Of a stretch of DNA of 39,297 bases, positions 2,279 through 35,012 are shown in pieces. Within the stretch, counting starts at the first letter, position 1; each line of letters starts with the position of its first letter. Source of the DNA: an uncultured delta proteobacterium. Lineage in GTDB: Bacteria > Desulfobacterota > Binatia > Bin18. The translations under genes were made by a program, and so were the position numbers. The notes beneath the pieces were generated by a model. The model was not told where the DNA came from and did no database searches. It was given only the letters and a program-made list of their open reading frames with translations. Location of the stretch: assembly GCA_963733195.1 (NCBI GenBank), contig CAVTCR010000021.1, positions 1 to 39,297 on the forward strand. The letters are read 5' to 3'.

Positions 2279-3280
2279 TCAGCGAATCGCAAACGGATTC
2301 CCAGGCGACCCCGTTGCGCCTTTTAACCGCAACGGCGCAAAGGAGTAGACGAACTCATACACTTTGTCTTTGGCTAACTCAGCAACATCAAGATTCTCAT
2401 GGATATAGATGCCGTTACGGACCAGCAGATGAGGATGCCCTTCAACCAACTGCTCTTTATCTTCTCCCGGCATTGCTTCAACAGAAGCGGTATCCGAACC
2501 CACCATGACGATCTTTTTCTCGGCCAGCCATTTGATTGCCGTTATTCCTGGTCCAGGTCCACCCGCCAAATACTTCTGATTATCTTTCATCCACAACTTG
2601 CCGTGCCCAGTATGAAACAGCACGACATCACCTTCTTGAATATCGACTTTCTCTTTTTCCAACATGCCAGTGATGTCATCAACCGTCACGATATACCCTG
2701 TATCGACACTTTCGACACCTTTGTATGAAGCCACGTCGAGTAGCACACCACGAGTGAAGATCACACCGACATTTTCAATGCCAAGTTTCTTCAAGCCATA
2801 CGCATCACCGAACTCAGAGAGTTTATTCCCGTTGTAGAAGATGTTTTCTCCATTGACCTGTATACCGACATGTCCCAGGCCATCGAACTGGGTGCCAACC
2901 TGGCCGAGTTCAGCGGCGACCATCTCACTGTTAGCAATCAATTGGTTCTTTCCCGTCGGCCCTTGGGTTGGCATACCAGGAATCGTCAAGGCGAAACTGC
3001 GGTTACCTGACAGTGGCATGCCGCGCTCGTAGACGCGGCCCAGTTGATAGATCTTCCCTTCTTTAATGAGCGAAGCCGCTTGGAGAATTTTCTGCGGCGT
3101 AATGCGATTGGCCGCACCACGTTGATCAGTCGGCCCCCACTCCGACGGCCACCACTTCGGACCGATCGGCGTTTCCTGGGCCAAGACTCCACTGATAGAG
3201 AAAAGTGTTATAGCAGTAGTGAAAAGAACACCTGCAGAGAATCTGAATAACCACTGCCCAATACGTCGAGTGTGTTTCAT
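2279..3280 (-). CDS. Cyclase family (kynurenine formamidase-like) metal-dependent hydrolase, likely exported
   Basis: GTQFDGLGH, RGVLLDV, HENLD and PLRLKGATGSPGNP motifs; signal-peptide-like N-terminus; GGGGGAG RBS before ATG 3280. Confidence 0.85.
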   Translation of the reverse strand: MKHTRRIGQWLFRFSAGVLFTTAITLFSISGVLAQETPIGPKWWPSEWGPTDQRGAANRITPQKILQAASLIKEGKIYQLGRVYERGMPLSGNRSFALTIPGMPTQGPTGKNQLIANSEMVAAELGQVGTQFDGLGHVGIQVNGENIFYNGNKLSEFGDAYGLKKLGIENVGVIFTRGVLLDVASYKGVESVDTGYIVTVDDITGMLEKEKVDIQEGDVVLFHTGHGKLWMKDNQKYLAGGPGPGITAIKWLAEKKIVMVGSDTASVEAMPGEDKEQLVEGHPHLLVRNGIYIHENLDVAELAKDKVYEFVYSFAPLRLKGATGSPGNPFAIR

Positions 3281-3365
3281 ACTCCCCCCTTTGAAAGCCT
3301 CCGCACACATAGGACACCTGCCCTGGTGGTGTAAAGACGCAAGTGACAGCGCCCTGTTCTATCTT

Positions 3366-3403
3366 CCCCTCTCCCTCGATGGGAGAGGGCCAGGGTGAGG
3401 GTG
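3366..3403. repeat. CCCTCTCCC-GGGAGAGGG palindromic repeat
   Basis: cccctctccctcgatgggagagggccagggtgagggtg. Confidence 0.65.
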
Positions 3404-3568
3404 TCGAATGACAGCTAAGACCGCAAGCCGTTCCCGGCAAATTACCTACGCCGGAAACACTACGCTCATTCTAATCGGCCTACGCTTTCCTCCGGCAGTG
3501 TTGCGGATTGAGCGGTGCGATTTCTCCTGCCATAATAGCTCATTCTTCTTTCGGGAGCGGGTTTTGTC

Positions 3569-3958
3569 ATGGGTACACAAGTAGTGCTCACGTTATCAGA
3601 CGACTTATATGAGCGGGCCAAGCGGTGGGCTTCTCGCACGCGACGCGACGTGCCGCAAACCTTGACCGACGCGCTGGAAATAGTCCTCACACCCGTACAT
3701 GAATCGCCTGAACCTGAACCTTCAGTGACAGCGATGTCTGATACCGAGGTCATGGCACTCGCCCAAGCGCAGATGTCACCACAACAGGGCAAACGGCTAG
3801 ATCATCTGCTGGCTAAACAGCAGGAGGAGTCCTTAGCTGCACACGAACAGGCCGAACTCCTGGCTCTCATGCAGGAATATAACCGGCTCTGGATTCGCCA
3901 ATCAGAAGCTTTAGCGGAAGCGGTCCGCCGTGGATTACGCAAGCCGCTGGCCCCATAA
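3569..3958 (+). CDS. Small RHH-like/antitoxin-like protein coupled to the HNH gene
   Basis: N-terminal VVLTLSDDLYERAKRWA strand-helix pattern; TAATG stop/start overlap with HNH. Confidence 0.6.
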   Translation: MGTQVVLTLSDDLYERAKRWASRTRRDVPQTLTDALEIVLTPVHESPEPEPSVTAMSDTEVMALAQAQMSPQQGKRLDHLLAKQQEESLAAHEQAELLALMQEYNRLWIRQSEALAEAVRRGLRKPLAP

Positions 3959-4217
3959 TGGCTGCACCAATATCGGAGGTGCTGCGGGCGCAAGTACGAG
4001 CTGCCGCTGCGAACCGTTGTGGTTATTGTCTCACCCATCAATCGTACGTCCCCTGGAGCGCTGGAAATCGAACATATCGTTCCACGGGCGAAAGGCGGAT
4101 CGGATGACGAAACGAACCTGTGGCTGGCGTGCCGCGCTTGCAATCTTTACAAAAGCACTCAAACCCACGGAACCGATCCTGTCGACCGGGCGTCGACTTC
4201 GCTTATTCAATCCTTGA
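3958..4217 (+). pseudogene. HNH endonuclease, two frameshifts and apparently truncated after FNP
   Basis: Joined frames: MAAPISEVLRAQVRAAAANRCGYC...LEIEHIVPRAKGGSDDETNLWLACRACNLYK...TGRRLRLFNP*. Confidence 0.8.
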
Positions 4218-4292
4218 CATCATATGTAGGCACGGGCGTTTATACCCGTAAGCAAAAGCACTGGTTGTTTTCTCGACATAGACCTCCGTCTT

Positions 4293-4328
4293 GTCATTCC
4301 AGGAAAGCAGCGCGAGACCCGGAATCCA
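4293..4328. repeat. GTCATTCC...GGAATCCA palindromic repeat
   Basis: gtcattccaggaaagcagcgcgagacccggaatcca; related copies at ~10752, ~24221, ~37680. Confidence 0.7.
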
Positions 4329-4387
4329 TCTAGCTTCCGACTCCTTGACAGCAAGTGAGAATTCGTCGAAGAATCGCTCTAGGGCAT

Positions 4388-4760
4388 ATGAGCGAGTGGG
4401 ACATTTTCATCAGCTACGCACATATCGATAACCAGCATTACTCCGACATTCCGCAAGGCTGGATCGATTATCTCCAAGAACGGCTGGAGATTCGTCTCGC
4501 TCAACTCCTTGGCAGAACACCCAACATTTGGCGCGACCGAAAAAAATTGCGTGGGAATCTTGACTTCCAGGATGAGATCAACGACGACTTGGCAAAAGTA
4601 GCGGTTTTCGTTTCGGTGCTTTCACCTCGCTACCTGGAATCCGACTCTTGCCAGTGCAGAAGTAGAAGCGTTTACGCGTGCGGCGGAACAGCAAGGTGGT
4701 ATCAGACGTGGCAACACGCATCGCGTCTTCAAAGTCATCAAGAACGAGGTCCCACTCTAG
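4388..4760 (+). CDS. Stand-alone TIR domain protein (~123 aa, one frameshift ~4651)
   Basis: DIFISYAH...IWRD...VLSPRYLESDSC, then in the shifted frame SAEVEAF...RVFKVIKNEVPL*; putative catalytic Glu of C-x-x-E retained. Confidence 0.8.
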
Positions 4761-7700
4761 CTCAACTCAGCAATCCGCTGTTCCACCCACACCAGATCTT
4801 TCTTCCATACGGCGTTACTCGGATCGTGCTGTACCAAACGAGCACTGATCACACGTGCCTTTTCGAAATGCGCCAACGCCTTAGCGTGTTGGTTTTCTCT
4901 CGCCAGTGCATTGCCGATCTTCATATAACTGACCGACAGATCGTGTTGCCACTCGGCATTGTGCGGGTCTGCTCCGCTAAGCGCTCATCAATCGTGCGAC
5001 TGGCCGTATACGCCGTCAGGGCCTGCTCCAACTGCCCTGGGCCATCAACACGTCGCCCACTTGTTGTGGCTGATCGACAGATCGCGTTGCCACGGGTATT
5101 GTGTGGGTTTGCTTGCTAAGCGCTTATAAATTGTGTGATTGGTTGTATATGTTGTTAGGGTTTGCTTTATTTGTTTTTGGGTTATTAACATGTGCTTATT
5201 TGCTGTGGTTGATTGATAGATGTGTTGTTACTTGGTATTGTGTGGGTTTTGCTTGCTAAGCGCTTATGAATTGTGTGACTGGTTGTATACGTTGTTAGGG
5301 TTTGCTTTATTTGTTTTGGGTTATTAACATGTGCTTATTTTGTTGTGGCTGATTGATAGATGCGTTGTTACTGGGTATTGTGTGGGTTTTGCTTGCTAAG
5401 CGCTTACAAATTATGTGACTGGTTGTATACGTTGCTAGGGTTTGCTTTATTTGTTTTGGGTTATCAACATGTGCTTATTTTGCTGTGGTTGATTGATAGA
5501 TCGCGTTGTCACTTGGTATTGTGCGGGTTTTGCTTCGCTAAGCGCTCACGAATTGTGCGACTGGTTGTATACGCTGCTAGGGTTTGCTTTACTTGCTTCT
5601 GGGTTATCAACATGTCGCTCACTTTCTCGTGGTTGATTGATAGATCGCGTTGCTACTGGGTATTGTGCGGGTTTTGCTTCGCTAAGCGCTCACGAATCGT
5701 GCGACTGGTTGTATACGCTGCTAGGGTTTGCTCCACTTGCTTCTGGGCTATCAACACGTCGCTCACCTTGCTGTGGTTGATCGATAGATCGCGTTGCTAC
5801 TCGGCATTGTGCGGGTCCTGCTCCGCTAAGCGCTCACAAATCGTGCGACTGGCCGTATACGCCGCCAGGGCCTGCTCCACCTGCCCCTGGGCCATCAACA
5901 CGTCGCCCACCTTGTCGTGGCTGACCGACAGATCGTGTTGCCACTCGGCATTGTGCGGGTCCTGCTCCGCTAAGCGCTCATCGAATCGTGCGACTGGCCG
6001 TATACGCCGTCAGGGCCTGCTCCAACTGCCCCTGGGCCACCAACACGTCGCCCACCCTGTTGTGGCTGATCGACAGATCGCGTTGCCACTCGGCATTGTG
6101 CGGGTCCTGCTCCGCTAAGCGCTCACGAATCGTGCGACTGGCCGTATACGCCGTCAGGGCCTGCTCCAACTGCCCCTGGGCCACCAACACGTCGCCCACC
6201 CTGTCGTGGCTGACCGAGAGCTCCCGTTGCAGTGCCACATCGTCTGGCCGTAGCGTCAACCCGCGTTGTAACCATTCGTGGATTGGGACAATTGCAATGC
6301 GCGCCAAGTCGAGACGACCGAGCATGTTGATCTGGTCGAGCCCGTCGTACAACAGTTTGAATTGGAGTGCATTCAAAGCCGTCGCGTCACAGTCGGCGCG
6401 TAGCAAGGCACTGGCATGGTTCAGAGCATGACCAAGGGGTAAGAACTCCCTGGTGCGGCGTACACTCTCCACGGCATACGTGAAGTGCGCAATCGCCCAT
6501 ACACCGAGCGAACTAAGCAGGGTGTCGTCGCCAGTGGAGTGGGCGAACTGGTGCGTCAGTGCATGGGTAAATTCCCAGTAGTCTTCTTCACTCGAAGTGA
6601 TTCTTAGCAGGCCATAACGGGCCAGGGACTTCAGGGCTTCGCGCGCCGGTGTTTCTTGCGTATGCAACACTGCCAAGGCGGCACTGAGCGGAAAAGGTTG
6701 CTGCGCTAGCAACCCCGCTGCTGTCAGCACTTGCCGCGCCTCGGGGGTGAGCCGCTTCACGCTGCGGTCGTACAGCCAGCGTAAAGTGTGATCTTCATAC
6801 GACGGTTCATGAAGGTTAGGGAGTTGGGCGGACGTGAGCGCGTTCACGAATGCACGCGGCGGCTCCTCACCCGCACCGAGCTGGAGACCGGCCCAGGTCA
6901 GCGCCAGGGGATGACCACCAAGCCGTTCATGTACACGTACGATCGTGGCTTCATCGGTGGTGTGGCCGCATAATTCACGCAGTAATGCCAGCGCTTCATC
7001 GTCGGAAAGTGCTGCCTCGACATTCAGCGGTTTGGCCGTACTGACTTGTCGTTTATCGCGCGTCAACACGAGCCGGGTCGTTTCCGGTGCTAAAACTTCC
7101 AACAACTTCTGTAATGTACGACCGTCACCCGCTTCCTCGGCGCCTTCTACCACGACCAGCGCACGACGGCCACGGCAAGCAGTAAGAACCCGCTCACGGG
7201 CACCGAGTGAGGTGGGCAGCGATTCGTCAAACGCATTGGCCAATTGGTGCCAGGCCGGGTCCGGCGAGGTGAACTTGAGACTATAGAGATCGAGGAGCAC
7301 GACACCATCGGGATACGGGGTTGTGGAAAGATTGTCCGGATTATCGCCGACAACCACATGAATCGCTTCGGCAGCCAGTGCAGACTTGCCCATGCCCGCC
7401 GGTCCCCAAATGTCCACATGTTCCCGGCAAGAGAGCCGTTCCACCAGTTGACGCAGTTGCGCGACGCGACCAAATAACTTTCCGGCCAGTGCACGCTTAG
7501 GCAATTGCAACGGTGGGCGCTGGGGACGTTGCTTCATCGACTCCGTAACCTGCTCGAACCCTTTGCGAGTCTCCTCGCGCAACTGGCCAAGCTCGCTCCG
7601 GGTCGCGCTCGTTGTCTCGTTGATGTCTTCGAGCAAAGCCGTGGCGTCATCAAACACCCGGCGAAAACTCCTCAGATCGTTCCATACGCCAGTGAGGTTT

Positions 7701-8524
7701 CCATCAAGAGCAGAGAACTTCTTTTCAAAGTCGTTGTAGTTGCTGCCCAACTGTTGCGGCAGCAGGCTGAGCACGTCCATTTCCCAGGCGATGCGGGCAC
7801 GTTCGTTGTCTTTGAGTTCTTCACGAAAGGCGAGCCGTAGCAAATCCCACCATCCTTGGGGATGTTGAGTTATGCGGCGCTTGAGGCTTGGCGGCAACCC
7901 AACATCAAAGGCGAACGTGCGGAATTCCGCGTCTTTTGCCCCGGCCTGCCCAAGAATGCCACGAGCGGCAACGTCGAGCACCTCGACTTGTTGCCTGACC
8001 ACATATTCACGCAACTGATCAGGACTGGAGGCAGCGAAGCATTCGCTGCCGGCTTTGATCATCACGGGCACGTCAGCCACCGCTGCACCATGCAGCTGCA
8101 GAAGTTTTTCTACGGACAGCGACTGCAAATCGCTATGCTGTTGCGCAAATACACGCCGGATGTAGCACACCGCCCGGCCTTCGGGGTCTTTGCGTTCATG
8201 TAGCCAAGATTTGAGGCGATCCTTCAAAGAATCAGTAGACAGACCAAAGTCCTCACGCAGCGCTTGATCGCACAGCGACACCACCGTGTGGCATTCTGCG
8301 CGTCGCAACGCCCGTAGGAGATCGTGATTGTTATTGCTCCCGCCTTGCTTCAACAGTGTGGTGAGGTCAGGAAGTTTGTTCAGCACTACCCATTTGCCAC
8401 CCTCCCACAGCACCGAGGCCACGAGGTTGCCGATGATACCGCCGTAGAACTGGCTACCAAAAGCTACACCATAAGTGAGCAAATTCTGAAATGCGGTTTT
8501 TTCCTCTGCCATAGGATCAGTCAT
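4757..8524 (-). CDS. STAND/NB-ARC (NLR-like) ATPase with unknown N-terminal helical domain and C-terminal 48-aa TPR-like repeats; 3' part disrupted in this sequence
   Basis: Walker A GPAGMGKS, Walker B-like ALVVVEG, GGHPLAL; repeats QRDLSISHNRVGDVLVAQGQLEQALTAYTASRTIRERLAEQDPHNAEW; intact cap ...KKDLVWVEQRIAELS* ends at 4757; ~1260 aa if restored. Confidence 0.85.
4930..6230 (-). repeat. Tandem array of about nine 144-bp units (48-aa TPR-like)
   Basis: Anchor GCTAAGCGCT at 4976, 5115, 5255, 5395, 5537, 5681, 5825, 5969, 6114 (spacings 139-145). Confidence 0.95.
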
Positions 8525-8622
8525 CTGAAAAGTGTAATCGTCTTCTTTCGTCCCGGCGAAAATACTGAACGCTCAGTGAGGAGTCAATCGTAAAGATTAG
8601 CGGAAGCAATCTTACCTTGCTT

Positions 8623-8681
8623 CCCTCATCCTGTCCTCTTCCGACTACGCGAAGGACAAGCTCTCCCGGTGGGAGAGGGGA
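8623..8681. repeat. CCCTC...GGGAGAGGG palindromic repeat with internal insertion
   Basis: ccctcatcctgtcc...ctctcccggtgggagagggga. Confidence 0.55.
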
Positions 8682-8751
8682 CTCAAACACGACCTCACCG
8701 TTGACAGAACAAGCCCTCTACGGCTATGCCCATGCACGAGAGGGACGCATC

Positions 8752-9948
8752 ATGAAACAATTCCATAACGAACGTGAACAGAAGTTTATCGACTTGGCGG
8801 CAACCTTGGCTGATGAGTTCGCTCCGCGTGCAGCGAAGTACGATGAAGAAGCCTCATTTCCCTATGAGAACTACGCGCGGTTGCGTGAGAGTGGTTACAC
8901 GATTCTCACCATCCCTGAAGAACTCGGAGGTCTCGGCGCAACGATGTTGCAACGCATCAAGGCACAGGAGCGACTGGCGCAAGGCTGTGGCGCGACCGCT
9001 CTGGCAATTAATATGCATTTCAATGTCCTGGGCTTGTTGATCGATTTATGGCGTACCAGCAAAGATCCGAAAGTCGAAGCTAAACTCCGCCAAGTCGCCA
9101 GTGGTCGCTTAGTCTGCGGTGGTACCGGTTCTGAACCAGACAATGCGGTACCAGTCCTACGCCCCCGTGCGATCGCAGAAAAAAGCAATGGCGGCTGGAT
9201 CGTCAATGGTCGCAAAATCTTTGGCACTCAGAGCATTGCGATGGATCTCTATTTCGCCGAAGCAACCTGGGAGAAGGCTCCGCAAGGACCGACGATCATT
9301 ACTTTTTTTATTCCACCAAAAGAGACACCCGGTGTGACCTTCAAAGATGACTGGTACACCATGGGCATGCGAGCGACTGCCTCACGTGGCGCTGAACTGA
9401 AAGAGGCGTTCATTCCTGAGTCGGCGGTGGTGTTGCAACGACCGGTATTTACGCGTGGGGGAGTGACGAACCTCTTTATCCGTGCCCCCTTCACAATTGG
9501 TGCGCCATACATCGGTATTGCCATCGCCGCGAGGGACTTTGTCGTGGAGTTTATGAAGGACCGACCACGTTTTCCCCTCAAGCAGCCGATGAGTCACTCG
9601 CCGAGTGTCTACAATAAAGTCGGCGAGATGGAGATACTGATTGAAACTGCCCGCGCAATGATGTGGAAAGCCGCGGCTGAAGTCGAAACCGAAGAGCCGC
9701 GTAGTTGGGCACGCAAGAGTGTCGCCGCACGTATGGTCGCGATTGAGAATTCATCACGCGTTGTCGATCTCGCAATGCGTGCCGTTGGAGGAGTGTCGTA
9801 TTACAAACGATTTCCGCTCGAACGTTACTATCGTGATGTCCGTGCTGGACTCTTTCATCCGTTTGATAGCGATGAAACGTTAGAGTTTCTCGGCAAGAGC
9901 GCGTTCGGTATTTCGCTGATGGACGAGGATGCGATTTGGGCGTCATGA
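8752..9948 (+). CDS. Acyl-CoA dehydrogenase family protein
   Basis: NGRKIFGT, DWYTMGMRATAS, PLERYYRDVRAG; GAGAGGG RBS before ATG 8752. Confidence 0.9.
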   Translation: MKQFHNEREQKFIDLAATLADEFAPRAAKYDEEASFPYENYARLRESGYTILTIPEELGGLGATMLQRIKAQERLAQGCGATALAINMHFNVLGLLIDLWRTSKDPKVEAKLRQVASGRLVCGGTGSEPDNAVPVLRPRAIAEKSNGGWIVNGRKIFGTQSIAMDLYFAEATWEKAPQGPTIITFFIPPKETPGVTFKDDWYTMGMRATASRGAELKEAFIPESAVVLQRPVFTRGGVTNLFIRAPFTIGAPYIGIAIAARDFVVEFMKDRPRFPLKQPMSHSPSVYNKVGEMEILIETARAMMWKAAAEVETEEPRSWARKSVAARMVAIENSSRVVDLAMRAVGGVSYYKRFPLERYYRDVRAGLFHPFDSDETLEFLGKSAFGISLMDEDAIWAS

Positions 9949-33142: not shown

Positions 33143-33838
33143 GGCGCAGTTCCTCTAATACCTCTCTGAATCGAACAAAATCTGTGAAGTCTTGGATAAT
33201 GGCGGTTGCTCCTTCAGCGCGCAAGACCGTCTCCTTTTCTCCCTGAGCAACACCAATAAAGCTTATGCCTAACTGCCGTGCAGCGCGAACATCCCACACT
33301 CCATCGCCAACATAGGTCACGTGAGAAAATTGCTGTTGTCGGTAGATCCCTCGTGCCATAGCCATGGCAGCAGCAATAATCACCTCGCGGGTAATACCGT
33401 GATCAGCAAACGCCGCCGGGAGACCGGCAATATCGATCTGTGCTTTTTCGAGCTTCAATAATGCGGAGAGCTGCCACCCACCAGTCGCAATCGCCACTCT
33501 ATAGTTTGGATCCTGACGTAATGTTGCGAATCGCTTTGCATGCACCAGGAATCTCGGCAAAATGCCTTGGCTCTTGGTGATAGACGTCTTCCAGGAGCGC
33601 GACAAAGCGTCGTTGCAAGCGGAGGACCTCCTCAAAGGTCGGTTCGCGCTTGAGATACTCTCGGAAGATGTACTGCGTGATACCTGAATCACACACTGTC
33701 GGGTAACGCGACCAGTCGGAATTGATTCTCGTCAGGCCAAGCTCATCGAGCAAAGCGACCTGAACAAAGCATCTGATCATCAACGTGCGTGGTTTGCGTC
33801 AGGGTGCCGTCGATGTCGAAGATGACGAGATGCATCAT
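33075..33838 (-). CDS. HAD family hydrolase (frameshifts ~33780, ~33535)
   Basis: N-terminal LVIFDIDGTL, IATGG, YVGDGVWDV. Confidence 0.85.
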
Positions 33839-33839
33839 G

Positions 33840-35012
33840 TCACGCCAAAATCGGTATCACTTCTGTCTGCATCGGCGCGCCAGTCACGATCGCTTCACGC
33901 GAAGTGATGTACATATTGATCTCGCTGCGCACCCCGAATTCTCCGGCCAGGTAAATCCCTGGCTCAATCGAAAAACAGGTTCCCGGCAACACCCGTCGTT
34001 CGTCTTGTGTCTCTAAGCCATCCATGTTCGCCCCATTGCCGTGGACTTCTTCACCGATCGAATGCCCAGTACGGTGAACGAAGTAGTTACCATATCCAGC
34101 GTCAGTAATGACTTTGCGTGTGACCGCATCTACTTCATAACCAGCAAACGATTGCTCACGCGCGACTCGCTCTTTAACAAAGGCGATGGCTGCATCACGA
34201 CCATTCCGCACATGATTGAAAATCTCTTGATAGCGAGCCGGGACTTCTTTGCCCATGAACCCGGTCCAGGTGATGTCTGCATAGACGCCACCGGGTTCCT
34301 TAGCCCATAAGTCGATCAACACGAAGTCGCCCGGGCGAATGAGTGACGAGCCCTCGGGCTGCGGCTCGTAATGCGGGTCAGCACTGTGCGCGTTAATCCC
34401 CACAATCGGTGGATGATGGGTCGTCAAACCGCGCGCCTTGAAGCGCTCAATGATGAATTGCTGGACCGCGTATTCGCTAATCGGTGCATGTTGGCGGATA
34501 TAAGCGAATGCTTCATCAACCGTCTCGCGCACGCCCTTTGCCGCTCGCAAGTGACTCTCCCATTGGGCCGTAGTCCATACTGCCTCAAATTGTTGTACCA
34601 GATCCGCCGCAGACACGATTTCGACACCAAACTGGCGAATCAACTCGATCGTGCCAGCATCGACACGTGAGACATAGGGAATCGCATTCCCCGGTGAGTA
34701 CTGCATAGCGATTCGCTGCCGTCCCTGCAGAGTTTCGGCCAGCGCCGCCTGTAATTGCTGCCAGGAAAGAAAGACTTTCTTCTGACCAGGAAGCATATCC
34801 AAGCGACGAGGCTCTACGCTGGACACAATTCCCACCGGTTCGCCTTGATCTGGAATGAAATAATACCAGCGACGCGTAGAAATCGTCGTTGCATCAAGCC
34901 CTAAAATACGATACGCAAGCGGATCGCTACCGCGAAAATCGTAGAACAACCAGCCGTCGACCTGTTCATGGCGGAGCGCTTCTTGGATATCGCTAAGACG
35001 TTGTTGCAGCAT
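33840..35012 (-). CDS. M24 family (Xaa-Pro) aminopeptidase
   Basis: DLWAK, ADITW, HRTGHSIG, SIEPGIY, GVRSE metal ligands. Confidence 0.9.
   Translation of the reverse strand: MLQQRLSDIQEALRHEQVDGWLFYDFRGSDPLAYRILGLDATTISTRRWYYFIPDQGEPVGIVSSVEPRRLDMLPGQKKVFLSWQQLQAALAETLQGRQRIAMQYSPGNAIPYVSRVDAGTIELIRQFGVEIVSAADLVQQFEAVWTTAQWESHLRAAKGVRETVDEAFAYIRQHAPISEYAVQQFIIERFKARGLTTHHPPIVGINAHSADPHYEPQPEGSSLIRPGDFVLIDLWAKEPGGVYADITWTGFMGKEVPARYQEIFNHVRNGRDAAIAFVKERVAREQSFAGYEVDAVTRKVITDAGYGNYFVHRTGHSIGEEVHGNGANMDGLETQDERRVLPGTCFSIEPGIYLAGEFGVRSEINMYITSREAIVTGAPMQTEVIPILA

What the first reader, a model, noticed from the sequence alone, without database searches (positions are those of the whole stretch)
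5095..5825. Strand-specific, graded C->T conversion confined to the NLR repeat array
Seen in sequence: compared with clean 144-bp units (~53-54 C on the + strand), hand counts of C per unit are about 42 (unit at 4976, intact until ~5095), then 9 (5115), 12 (5255), 19 (5395), 29 (5537), 40 (5681) and 54 (5825). Onset is abrupt and decay is monotonic. G, A and T are almost untouched, so the tract looks bisulfite-converted. CC runs are lost preferentially, while the same isolated Cs (GCTAAGCGCT, TGCT, AACA) survive in each unit. On the coding strand this is G->A rising toward the gene 3' end and creates stops (TGG->TAA/TAG). Established: one-strand C->T with polarity and CC bias is the pattern of ssDNA cytidine deaminases such as APOBEC3G. 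It differs from fungal RIP (both strands) and from DGRs (adenine-specific). Inference: this could be a repeat-targeted deamination process that diversifies or silences a bacterial NLR sensor. A long-read base-calling or consensus artefact is at least as likely: converted units also lose 2-5 bases, the window is rich in frameshifts, and no deaminase or reverse transcriptase gene is visible here.
Basis: partly seen in the sequence, partly recalled or inferred. Interest (0 to 1): 0.85.

Follow-up and report, generated by a model that had tools for sequence, protein, structure and literature searches.

The report
One-strand C-to-T tract, probably artefact
A 700-base stretch inside the repeat region of a bacterial immune-sensor-like gene reads as if nearly every C on one strand had been turned into T, but the regularity of the pattern and the error-rich long-read assembly suggest a sequencing or consensus artefact more than a new mutation system.

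Summary
In the 144-bp repeat array (4929-6230), five units between 5097 and 5798 have lost 167 of 270 C sites (157 C>T, 10 lost) but only 1 of 195 G sites. Onset is abrupt (5093/5097) and conversion falls 85, 78, 69, 48, 30, 0 % per unit.

The deaminase reading is not supported.
- The site-by-unit pattern is almost deterministic: 30 of 33 mixed sites are monotone. A one-molecule chemical process with a linear dose gives this with P~1e-6.
- Seven of the ten lost Cs sit at x[C]GC sites that never appear as T, which is a context-specific systematic miscall.
- The genome is an uncorrected long-read MAG. rpoB is in 3 frames and rpoC in at least 4, and a 516-bp (GA)n lies between fragments of a methylase gene.
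- This is the only such tract among repeats in 6.9 Mb. Four other arrays here and two homologous arrays in a relative are clean.
- No DNA-deaminase toxin or C5-methylase gene was found, and no RT lies on the contig.

No source reads could be found, so a real one-off ssDNA deamination event is not excluded. Odds: artefact ~0.58, real event ~0.2, altered single molecule ~0.12, programmed system ~0.04.

The parts
4757..8524 (-). STAND NTPase gene with C-terminal 48-aa TPR-like repeats ('NLR-like'). The N-terminal 848 codons (5978-8524) are open. The repeat part is broken by stops and frame changes.
   Evidence: ORF 5978-8524. Translation. Pfam AAA_16 349-523, nSTAND1, TPR_11/TPR_12 775-842, all near or below the cut-offs. 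NCBIfam gives weak FxSxx_TPR and MalT matches. No PADLOC model matches.
4929..6230 (.). Tandem array of 144-bp units (9.1 copies, also scored as a 289-bp double unit).
   Evidence: TRF. Unit alignment.
5097..5798 (+). The converted tract: C>T on the + strand only (G>A on the coding strand). Onset is abrupt at 5093/5097. Conversion is 85, 78, 69, 48, 30 % per unit and ends between 5798 and 5853.
5825..6230 (.). Clean units used as the reference. u5825 shares unit-specific variants with the converted block. u5969 carries a +1 insertion that ends the open frame at 5978.
4976..5093 (.). Clean part of the first unit, left of the onset, with two 1-base losses in C runs.
4388..4760 (+). TIR-domain gene fragment convergent with the NTPase gene. 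It is interrupted by a frame change.
   Evidence: Pfam TIR_2, E=1.8e-7, profile positions 1-76 of 122. Frames.
3959..4217 (+). HNH endonuclease gene split over two frames at a C run near 4050.
   Evidence: Pfam HNH, E=5e-10, profile positions 13-45 of 47. Frames.

Best explanation
The tract is most likely not a heritable sequence feature. It is probably an artefact of long-read (nanopore-type) base calling and consensus. One or a few reads of one orientation would have had a signal that was mis-scaled or degraded over about 700 nt. Their G-runs were then called as A-runs, which is C>T on the + strand. The mis-call probability depended on local sequence and faded smoothly along the read.

Because the same 144-nt sequence recurs in each unit, a smoothly changing analogue error passed through a deterministic caller gives the same site hierarchy in every unit, which is what is seen. 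The error survived in the consensus of an assembly that is demonstrably poorly corrected.

Shown here:
- The pattern itself.
- Its near-determinism.
- The context-specific base losses.
- The error-rich state of the assembly.
- The uniqueness of the tract in the genome.

Inferred:
- The sequencing platform.
- That few reads support the tract.
- The physical cause of the signal error.
For: 1. Near-deterministic nesting. Of 56 C sites followed over five units, 33 are mixed, and 30 of those switch once from T to C along the array.
- A single-molecule first-order process with exposure falling linearly to zero at ~5830 gives P(>=30 of 33 monotone) of ~1e-6.
- It becomes compatible only with a >=3-5-fold dose drop per unit, or with a majority vote over >=9 molecules.

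2. Systematic context-specific base loss. 10 Cs are lost in the five units. Seven of them are at the three x[C]GC sites (alignment columns 80, 110, 144), where the altered state is a deletion in 7 of 7 cases and never T. A deaminase does not delete bases.

3. Local indel density is ~14 per kb in the tract.

4. The assembly is uncorrected long-read quality.
- rpoB is split over 3 frames and rpoC over at least 4 pieces.
- HNH and TIR genes next to the array are frameshifted.
- A 516-bp (GA)n lies between ORF fragments of an Eco57I/MmeI-type methylase gene.

5. Site sensitivity follows an idiosyncratic multi-base context: GG[C] high, CG[C]/AG[C] low, TG[C]T never, AA[C]TG 5 of 5 but GA[C]TG 1 of 5. 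It does not follow predicted ssDNA pairing (Spearman rho 0.06).

6. Precedents, from abstracts read.
- Nanopore callers miscall (TTAGGG)n as (TTAAAA)n and (CCCTAA)n as (CTTCTT)n in a strand-specific way (10.1101/2022.01.11.475254).
- G-to-A and A-to-G are the shared nanopore substitution bias (10.64898/2026.01.14.699587).

7. No enzyme candidate was found, and the phenomenon is not seen in other arrays.
Against: - No reads were seen, so support by few reads or by one orientation is inferred, not shown.
- Non-C positions in the tract are accurate and keep unit-specific variants (1 of 195 G and 10 of 255 A/T changed). This is better than a poor raw read would give.
- A pure signal error that changes only one base type over 700 nt is not a documented artefact for long-period repeats. 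My two searches for one found only the short-repeat and methylation-motif cases.
- Two other high-identity arrays in the same assembly (C32, C39) are clean with 0 % indels, so repeats are not generally badly polished here.
- The geometry (sharp 5' edge on the affected strand, decay towards 3') is what a real ssDNA exposure gradient behind a primer or invasion point would give.
Confidence: 0.58

Rival explanations
1. A real, one-off, kataegis-like event. The + strand of the array was exposed as single-stranded DNA from a fixed 5' boundary. This could be a nascent strand after out-of-register strand invasion or break-induced synthesis in the array, a lagging-strand template gap, or an incoming or cDNA strand. 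A ssDNA cytosine deaminase, endogenous or injected by a competitor, deaminated it, and the result was fixed by replication. The gene is a casualty, not a target.
For: - The change is exclusively C>T on one strand (167 of 270 C against 1 of 195 G).
- The edge is sharp on the 5' side of the affected strand and the effect decays 3'-ward, as expected if the 5' part stays single-stranded longest.
- The converted block plus u5825 share unit variants that the flanking units lack, which fits a recently expanded block.
- Bacterial ssDNA deaminase toxins exist and mutagenise survivors (abstract starts of PMC7901873 and PMC12494967).
- APOBEC mutagenesis favours the lagging-strand template (abstract start of PMC5287224).
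Against: - Near-perfect nesting needs a >=3-5-fold dose drop per 144 nt and site rates spread over ~100-600-fold. The observed profile, in contrast, declines slowly and then stops.
- Base losses at x[C]GC sites (7 of 7) are not a deaminase product.
- SsdA is described as context-independent and DddA as 5'-TC and dsDNA-specific (abstracts). Neither fits the hierarchy seen here.
- No toxin-type deaminase was found in the genome, which is 93 % complete.
- There is no correlation with ssDNA folding.
- About 170 uracils in 700 nt would have to escape uracil excision.
Confidence: 0.2
2. The sequenced native DNA molecule or molecules were chemically different on one strand, for example uracil from deamination of a damaged or dying cell's DNA, or dense cytosine modification. 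The caller read the altered bases as T in a context-dependent way. This would be real chemistry, but not a heritable sequence.
For: - It explains strand specificity together with context-dependent calls and odd deletions at particular k-mers.
- DNA modification is reported to cause strand-specific nanopore mismatches (abstract start of PMC11610603; abstract of 10.64898/2026.01.14.699587).
- The assembly looks like uncorrected native long-read data.
Against: - No C5-methyltransferase gene was found.
- A digital chemical state per site does not by itself give the graded, nested pattern.
- Nothing else in the genome looks like it.
- It is untestable without signal data.
Confidence: 0.12
3. A programmed, repeat-targeted cytosine deamination (or methylation-plus-deamination) process acts repeatedly on this sensor gene in many cells. 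The consensus would then reflect a population of differently converted molecules that all start at the same site.
For: - A majority vote over >=9 independently converted molecules reproduces the nesting.
- The tract lies wholly inside the array of a STAND/TPR sensor-like gene.
- Targeted hypermutation of STAND sensors by DGRs is known in multicellular bacteria (search listing and abstract start of PMC10907252).
Against: - Only 1 of 5 long-period arrays in the genome is affected, and 0 of 2 homologous arrays in a relative.
- There is no deaminase, C5-MTase or RT at the locus.
- The changes create stops in every affected unit.
- There is no CpA or other simple motif rule.
- The base losses remain unexplained.
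Confidence: 0.04

Closest known systems
Strand-specific nanopore repeat-calling errors (telomere TTAGGG>TTAAAA, CCCTAA>CTTCTT; Tan et al., 10.1101/2022.01.11.475254, abstract read) and the general nanopore G>A/A>G bias (10.64898/2026.01.14.699587, abstract read)
   Same: The error is one-strand, a transition and run-biased (GG>AA on the read strand). It lies inside a tandem repeat, depends on context and is reproducible.
   Different: The known cases are 6-bp repeats or methylation motifs. Here the unit is 144 bp, the error is graded over ~700 nt with a sharp edge, and no reads were available to show that it is read-level.
APOBEC3G-type hypermutation and kataegis on ssDNA
   Same: C>T on one strand, a preference for CC, a polarity along the strand, and stop codons made from TGG.
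   Different: The first C of a CC pair is converted as readily as the second, and -2 G matters strongly. The pattern is nearly deterministic. Bases are lost. No such enzyme gene was found.
Bacterial deaminase toxins DddA (BaDTF1) and SsdA (BaDTF2)
   Same: They deaminate C in bacterial DNA and leave C>T mutations in survivors (PMC7901873, abstract start).
   Different: DddA acts on dsDNA at 5'-TC. SsdA is described as context-independent (PMC12494967 and PMC13346905, abstract starts). Dense 700-nt tracts are not mentioned in what I read. No DddA-like match was found in the genome, although the control search also rang nowhere.
Fungal repeat-induced point mutation (RIP)
   Same: C>T in repeated DNA that inactivates the gene by creating stops.
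   Different: There is no CpA preference (mean conversions of 5 by following base: C 3.7, A 3.4, G 2.9, T 2.2). Only about 5 of 9 units are affected and there is a one-sided gradient. No C5-MTase (RID/Dim-2-like) homologue was found. The organism is bacterial.
Diversity-generating retroelements acting on STAND sensors (PMC10907252, abstract start)
   Same: Targeted hypermutation of NLR-like sensor genes in bacteria.
   Different: DGRs change adenines through a template repeat and an RT. Here A sites are untouched, there is no template/variable pair, and none of the genome's RVT_1 matches is on this contig.

Membership tests
ssDNA cytidine-deaminase hypermutation (APOBEC/AID-like, BaDTF2-like) | C>T confined to one strand | tested here: met
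   167 of 270 C sites changed against 1 of 195 G>A.
ssDNA cytidine-deaminase hypermutation (APOBEC/AID-like, BaDTF2-like) | Stochastic per-site outcome with a simple -1/-2 motif preference | tested here: not met
   30 of 33 mixed sites are monotone, with P~1e-6 under a linear-dose single-molecule model. The context rule is idiosyncratic.
ssDNA cytidine-deaminase hypermutation (APOBEC/AID-like, BaDTF2-like) | Substitutions only, with no base loss | tested here: not met
   10 Cs are lost. Seven of them are at x[C]GC sites that are never seen as T.
ssDNA cytidine-deaminase hypermutation (APOBEC/AID-like, BaDTF2-like) | A DNA deaminase encoded in, or delivered to, the cell | tested here: inconclusive
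   Only housekeeping CDA-fold genes were found (TadA-like, ComEB-like and two others). PF14428 and PF14431 gave no match. The PF14428 control rang in no genome. The MAG is 93 % complete. Delivery of a toxin from another cell cannot be tested.
Fungal-type RIP | CpA dinucleotide preference | tested here: not met
   Mean conversions of 5 by following base: C 3.71, A 3.36, G 2.93, T 2.17.
Fungal-type RIP | C5-cytosine methyltransferase homologue (RID/Dim-2 type) | tested here: not met
   PF00145 gave 0 matches in G000, while the control rang in 9 of 14 genomes.
Fungal-type RIP | All copies of a repeat are hit, and other repeats in the genome are hit too | tested here: not met
   About 5 of 9 units are affected. 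Four other arrays are clean. No other one-way C>T repeat pair has more than 16 changes.
DGR | Adenine-specific changes, a template/variable repeat pair and a nearby RT | tested here: not met
   A sites are unchanged. The 12 RVT_1 matches are all on other contigs.
Long-read base-calling or consensus artefact | The assembly derives from error-prone long reads without effective correction | tested here: met
   rpoB is in 3 frames and rpoC in at least 4 pieces. Neighbouring genes are frameshifted. This shows indirectly that essential genes are broken by indels. The platform itself is not on record.
Long-read base-calling or consensus artefact | The alleles are carried by few reads or one read orientation and are absent from accurate reads | not testable with these tools
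   No run holds half or more of the locus's words; the best share is 0.11. The four runs laid hold only relatives.
Long-read base-calling or consensus artefact | Deterministic, k-mer-dependent error reproduced wherever the same sequence recurs | tested here: met
   The site hierarchy is the same in all five units. The duplicated CTGCTCC motif behaves alike at both places, 5,5,0,4,4 against 4,4,0,4,2.
STAND NTPase / NLR-like sensor (the host gene) | Central P-loop NTPase followed by a C-terminal repeat sensor | tested here: met
   AAA_16 at 349-523 (28.3 bits, below the 32.6 cut-off), nSTAND1 weak, TPR_11 above its cut-off. MalT and FxSxx_TPR matches are weak. Orthologues with 58-71 % identity occur in two related genera. 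Membership rests on sub-threshold NTPase matches plus the overall architecture.

The most novel reading that the evidence does not exclude
A bacterial process that deaminates cytosines on one strand of a tandem-repeat sensor gene. It would start at a fixed site and run processively for ~700 nt in many cells of the population, making it a prokaryotic counterpart of RIP or APOBEC editing. Alternatively, a one-off kataegis event of unprecedented density was caught in a natural bacterial genome. The nesting is compatible with a consensus over >=9 differently converted molecules, so the evidence does not exclude this.
Probability: 0.06. Interest if true: 0.9.

Novelty: not a real feature. Interest (0 to 1): 0.3.

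Why it matters
If real, this would be the first dense, strand-specific cytosine hypermutation tract in a natural bacterial chromosome. It would sit in an NLR-like immune sensor and point either to a RIP- or APOBEC-like process in prokaryotes or to in-situ evidence of deaminase warfare.

If it is an artefact, as I think more likely, it still has practical value. It would be a base-specific, graded, 700-nt miscall that survives into the consensus of a long-read MAG. It mimics enzymatic editing, introduces stop codons and falsely pseudogenises a gene. Scans of long-read MAGs for hypermutation, RIP-like signatures or pseudogenes need a read-level check before such tracts are believed.

Tried and rejected
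1. Public reads.
- The look-up of sequencing runs on 2500-9500 listed 24 runs, none holding half or more of the words; the best share was 0.11.
- I laid X1-X4 at 80 % likeness. They gave short contigs, mostly under 90 % alike, so these are relatives and not the source.
- Bins 5308-5775 had no cover in any of the 4 runs. This is no evidence either way.
- Two X3 contigs 'skip' 5091>5891 and 5092>5915, with only 31-33 letters on the short side and out of register with the 144-bp unit. I do not interpret them.

2. Pattern scans. The unit core with Y at every C site gave 0 matches in genome contigs and 0 in metagenome contigs, so neither clean nor converted units are found elsewhere.

3. Three-letter (C=T) self-alignment of the genome. 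The first run, with the low-complexity filter on, masked the tract itself. I repeated it without the filter. After dropping homopyrimidine rows (A or G below 10 %), 5 one-directional pairs remained: two from this array (91:10 and 49:3), and the others had <=16 changes.

4. A lax composition scan gave 131 tracts, mostly purine-rich or low-complexity, and was not useful. A z-score scan over all 12 directions also found only ordinary outliers.

5. Two G+T-rich, C-poor intergenic tracts in C12 (32599-32876 and 33726-33900) were the only other hits of the strict scan.
- Same-genus genomes lack the whole segment between them.
- A sensitive three-letter search gave only low-complexity noise.
- Whether they are converted sequence cannot be told. 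They look like ordinary spacers.

6. ssDNA folding as the cause of site sensitivity gave no correlation.

7. Frameshift sites in rpoB and rpoC were not clearly tied to homopolymers by eye, so no platform can be inferred from that.

8. A match of the tract length to a base-caller chunk (recalled defaults, no call) is only a thought and is not used as evidence.

10. Literature. Searches found no report of a dense one-strand C>T tract in a bacterial chromosome and none of a long-period nanopore artefact of this kind. That is all the claim 'not in print' rests on. Supplementary files were not consulted.
Full report
WHAT IS THERE

The window is the whole of contig C21 of a 6.95-Mb, 87-contig genome that is 93 % complete. 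On the - strand lies a gene that starts at 8524. Its first 848 codons are open down to 5978.
- They carry weak P-loop STAND NTPase matches: AAA_16 at 349-523, nSTAND1, and MalT/FxSxx_TPR in NCBIfam.
- They also carry TPR matches at 775-842.
- No PADLOC model matches.

The C-terminal part is a tandem array of 144-bp (48-aa) units at 4929-6230, 9.1 copies. To its left lie a TIR_2 gene fragment (4388-4760, +) and an HNH gene (3959-4217, +). Both are interrupted by frame changes. Orthologues of the NTPase with 58-71 % identity occur in two other genera of the same family. In all, 9 of 41 genomes searched gave a match, G000 included.

With units anchored on a 10-nt motif, the C counts per unit are 42, 9, 12, 19, 29, 40, 54, 53, 55 and the lengths 139, 140, 140, 142, 144, 144, 144, 145, 144.

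Against the adjacent clean unit u5825, the five converted units show:
- 167 of 270 C sites altered (157 to T, 10 lost);
- 1 of 195 G sites changed to A;
- 10 of 255 A/T sites changed, which is about what clean units show among themselves;
- Fisher P=3e-52.

Conversion per unit is 46, 42, 37, 26, 16 of 54. The last C kept before the tract is 5093 and the first converted is 5097. The last converted is 5798, and at 5853/5854 the most sensitive sites are C again. Cs adjacent to another C are converted in 3.9 of 5 units on average, isolated Cs in 2.0 of 5. Eight sites are never converted. On the coding strand the Trp codon of each unit becomes TAA, TGA or TAG.

IS IT UNIQUE?

- A strict composition scan (140-nt windows, C<=12 %, T>=40 %, G>=24 %, and the complementary rule) finds three tracts in the genome. 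One is this tract. The other two are shorter intergenic G+T-rich stretches in C12 that flank a segment absent from same-genus genomes. They cannot be shown to be converted.
- A three-letter (C=T) self-alignment of the genome finds no other repeat pair with a strong one-way C>T excess.
- The unit occurs nowhere else in the genome or in the two public collections scanned.
- The four other long-period arrays of the genome (C4, C32, C39, C51) have balanced, low substitution spectra.
- Two homologous 144-bp arrays in relative G014 are also balanced.

WHAT THE FINE STRUCTURE SAYS

Following 56 C sites across the five units, 15 are converted in all units and 8 in none. Of the 33 mixed sites, 30 switch exactly once from T to C along the array. 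The three exceptions include one site that is naturally C/T polymorphic among clean units.

For a chemical reaction on one molecule, every site in every unit is an independent trial. The models give:
- With exposure falling linearly to zero near 5830, which is what the 85-78-69-48-30-0 % profile suggests, the chance of >=30 of 33 monotone sites is about 1e-6.
- The data become acceptable only if the dose falls >=3-5-fold per unit, or if the sequence is a majority vote over >=9 independently converted molecules.
- A deterministic caller acting on a smoothly changing analogue signal gives the pattern for free.

Second, the 10 lost Cs are not random. Seven are at the three x[C]GC sites, where the altered state is always a deletion and never T (7 of 7). 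The other three shorten T runs. Deamination does not remove bases. A caller that merges a T-like signal into the preceding T does.

Third, site sensitivity obeys no simple dinucleotide rule:
- GG[C] is high and CG[C]/AG[C] low.
- TG[C]T is never converted.
- AA[C]TG is converted in 5 of 5 units but GA[C]TG in 1 of 5.

It is also unrelated to predicted ssDNA pairing (rho 0.06). The duplicated motif CTGCTCC behaves alike at both of its positions. Sensitivity is therefore set by local sequence, which both an enzyme and a caller would do.

THE ASSEMBLY

rpoB is split over 3 reading frames and rpoC over at least 4 pieces. That is roughly one indel per 1.5-2 kb in essential genes. This is the mark of uncorrected long-read consensus. 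The platform is not on record and I infer it.

Elsewhere, a 516-bp (GA)n tract lies between ORF fragments of an Eco57I/MmeI-type methylase gene. It looks like read-level junk that survived into the consensus, although I cannot prove that. Inside the tract the indel density is about 14 per kb.

ENZYMES

- A motif scan of all six frames gave 24 regex hits, of which four look like genuine CDA-fold genes (TadA-like, ComEB-like and two others).
- DddA-like (PF14428) and YwqJ-like (PF14431) searches found nothing. For PF14428 the control rang nowhere, so that search is weak.
- No C5 DNA methyltransferase was found, with the control ringing in 9 of 14 genomes.
- There are 12 RVT_1 matches, none on C21.

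READS

No public run holds the locus; the best share of words was 0.11 of 701 sampled. The four runs laid hold only relatives. The decisive test therefore could not be run.

WEIGHING

Best reading: artefact, about 0.58.
- The determinism, the context-specific deletions, the quality of the assembly, the uniqueness of the tract and the lack of any enzyme all favour it.
- There are published precedents: strand-specific, run-biased G>A / C>T nanopore miscalls in repeats (abstract of 10.1101/2022.01.11.475254) and the general G>A/A>G bias (abstract of 10.64898/2026.01.14.699587).

Against the artefact:
- Purines and thymines in the tract are accurate and keep unit-specific variants.
- Two other arrays in the same assembly are clean.
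- No such long-period artefact is described in the papers my searches returned.
- The geometry is exactly that expected for a strand left single-stranded behind a primer, invasion point or Okazaki boundary.

Rivals:
- A real one-off deamination of a replication or recombination intermediate: about 0.2.
- A chemically altered native molecule (uracil or modified C) read oddly by the caller: about 0.12.
It affects 1 of 5 arrays here and 0 of 2 homologous arrays in a relative, has no enzyme candidate, and makes stop codons in every affected unit.

COMPARISON WITH KNOWN SYSTEMS

- It resembles APOBEC3G editing in strand specificity, CC bias and TGG>stop. It fails the tests of stochasticity, substitution-only outcome and presence of an enzyme.
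- It fails RIP on CpA bias, the C5-MTase homologue and genome-wide action on repeats.
- It fails DGR on base specificity and RT linkage.
- It meets the testable features of a long-read calling artefact. The defining one, support by reads, could not be tested.

From recall and not from any call: the details of RIP strand behaviour, APOBEC3G polarity, and base-caller chunk sizes.

VERDICT

The interpretation as a deamination system is not supported. The tract is most likely not a real feature, but it deserves a read-level check because the alternative would be remarkable.

Noticed in passing
G000 contig C7:78445-78960 (locus L012:746-1261): A 516-bp imperfect (GA)n tract lies between ORF fragments on the - strand. 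The fragment on one side matches the Eco57I/MmeI-type methylase families (E=4e-16). It looks like read-level junk kept in the consensus, or an extraordinary microsatellite inside a gene.
   Followed up: partly
G000 contig C71:133111-141235: rpoB is split over 3 reading frames and rpoC over at least 4 pieces. The assembly carries roughly one indel per 1.5-2 kb even in essential genes, so apparent pseudogenes in this genome should not be trusted.
   Followed up: yes
G000 contig C12:32599-32876 and 33726-33900 (locus L011): Two C-poor (8-9 %), G+T-rich intergenic tracts flank an alpha/beta-hydrolase-like gene. The whole segment between them is absent from the two same-genus genomes, and its genes have 76-80 % paralogues on C28 and C38. 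Whether the tracts are natural spacers or converted sequence could not be told.
   Followed up: partly
window 3959-4760: An HNH endonuclease gene and a TIR_2-domain gene directly beside the STAND/TPR gene are both interrupted by frame changes. The HNH break is at a C run. Together with the NTPase gene this looks like a small defence-type gene cluster, broken either by sequencing error or by decay.
   Followed up: partly
window 5115-5680: Inside the converted block, two non-C variants alternate from unit to unit: alignment column 14 A/G and column 122 T/G. The block therefore has a 288-bp double-unit structure, which TRF also scores as period 289. The block plus u5825 share variants that the flanking units lack, which suggests a recent local expansion.
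   Followed up: partly
G000, 12 RVT_1 matches on C1, C6, C14, C35, C39, C59, C64, C66, C83: The genome carries many reverse-transcriptase genes. None is on the window's contig. Their types (group II intron, retron, DGR) were not determined.
   Followed up: no
G000 contig C8:88750-89060: A purine-only stretch of 166 nt lies within a ~300-nt purine-rich region. It reads as an open frame for a Lys/Glu/Arg-rich low-complexity protein and is probably genuine.
   Followed up: no
G014:C8:1-563 (L019) and G014:C53:5648-6438 (L020:1149-1939): A relative in another genus has two arrays with the same 144-bp period (94 % and 82 % matches). One sits at a contig start, so these arrays break short-read assemblies.
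   Followed up: partly
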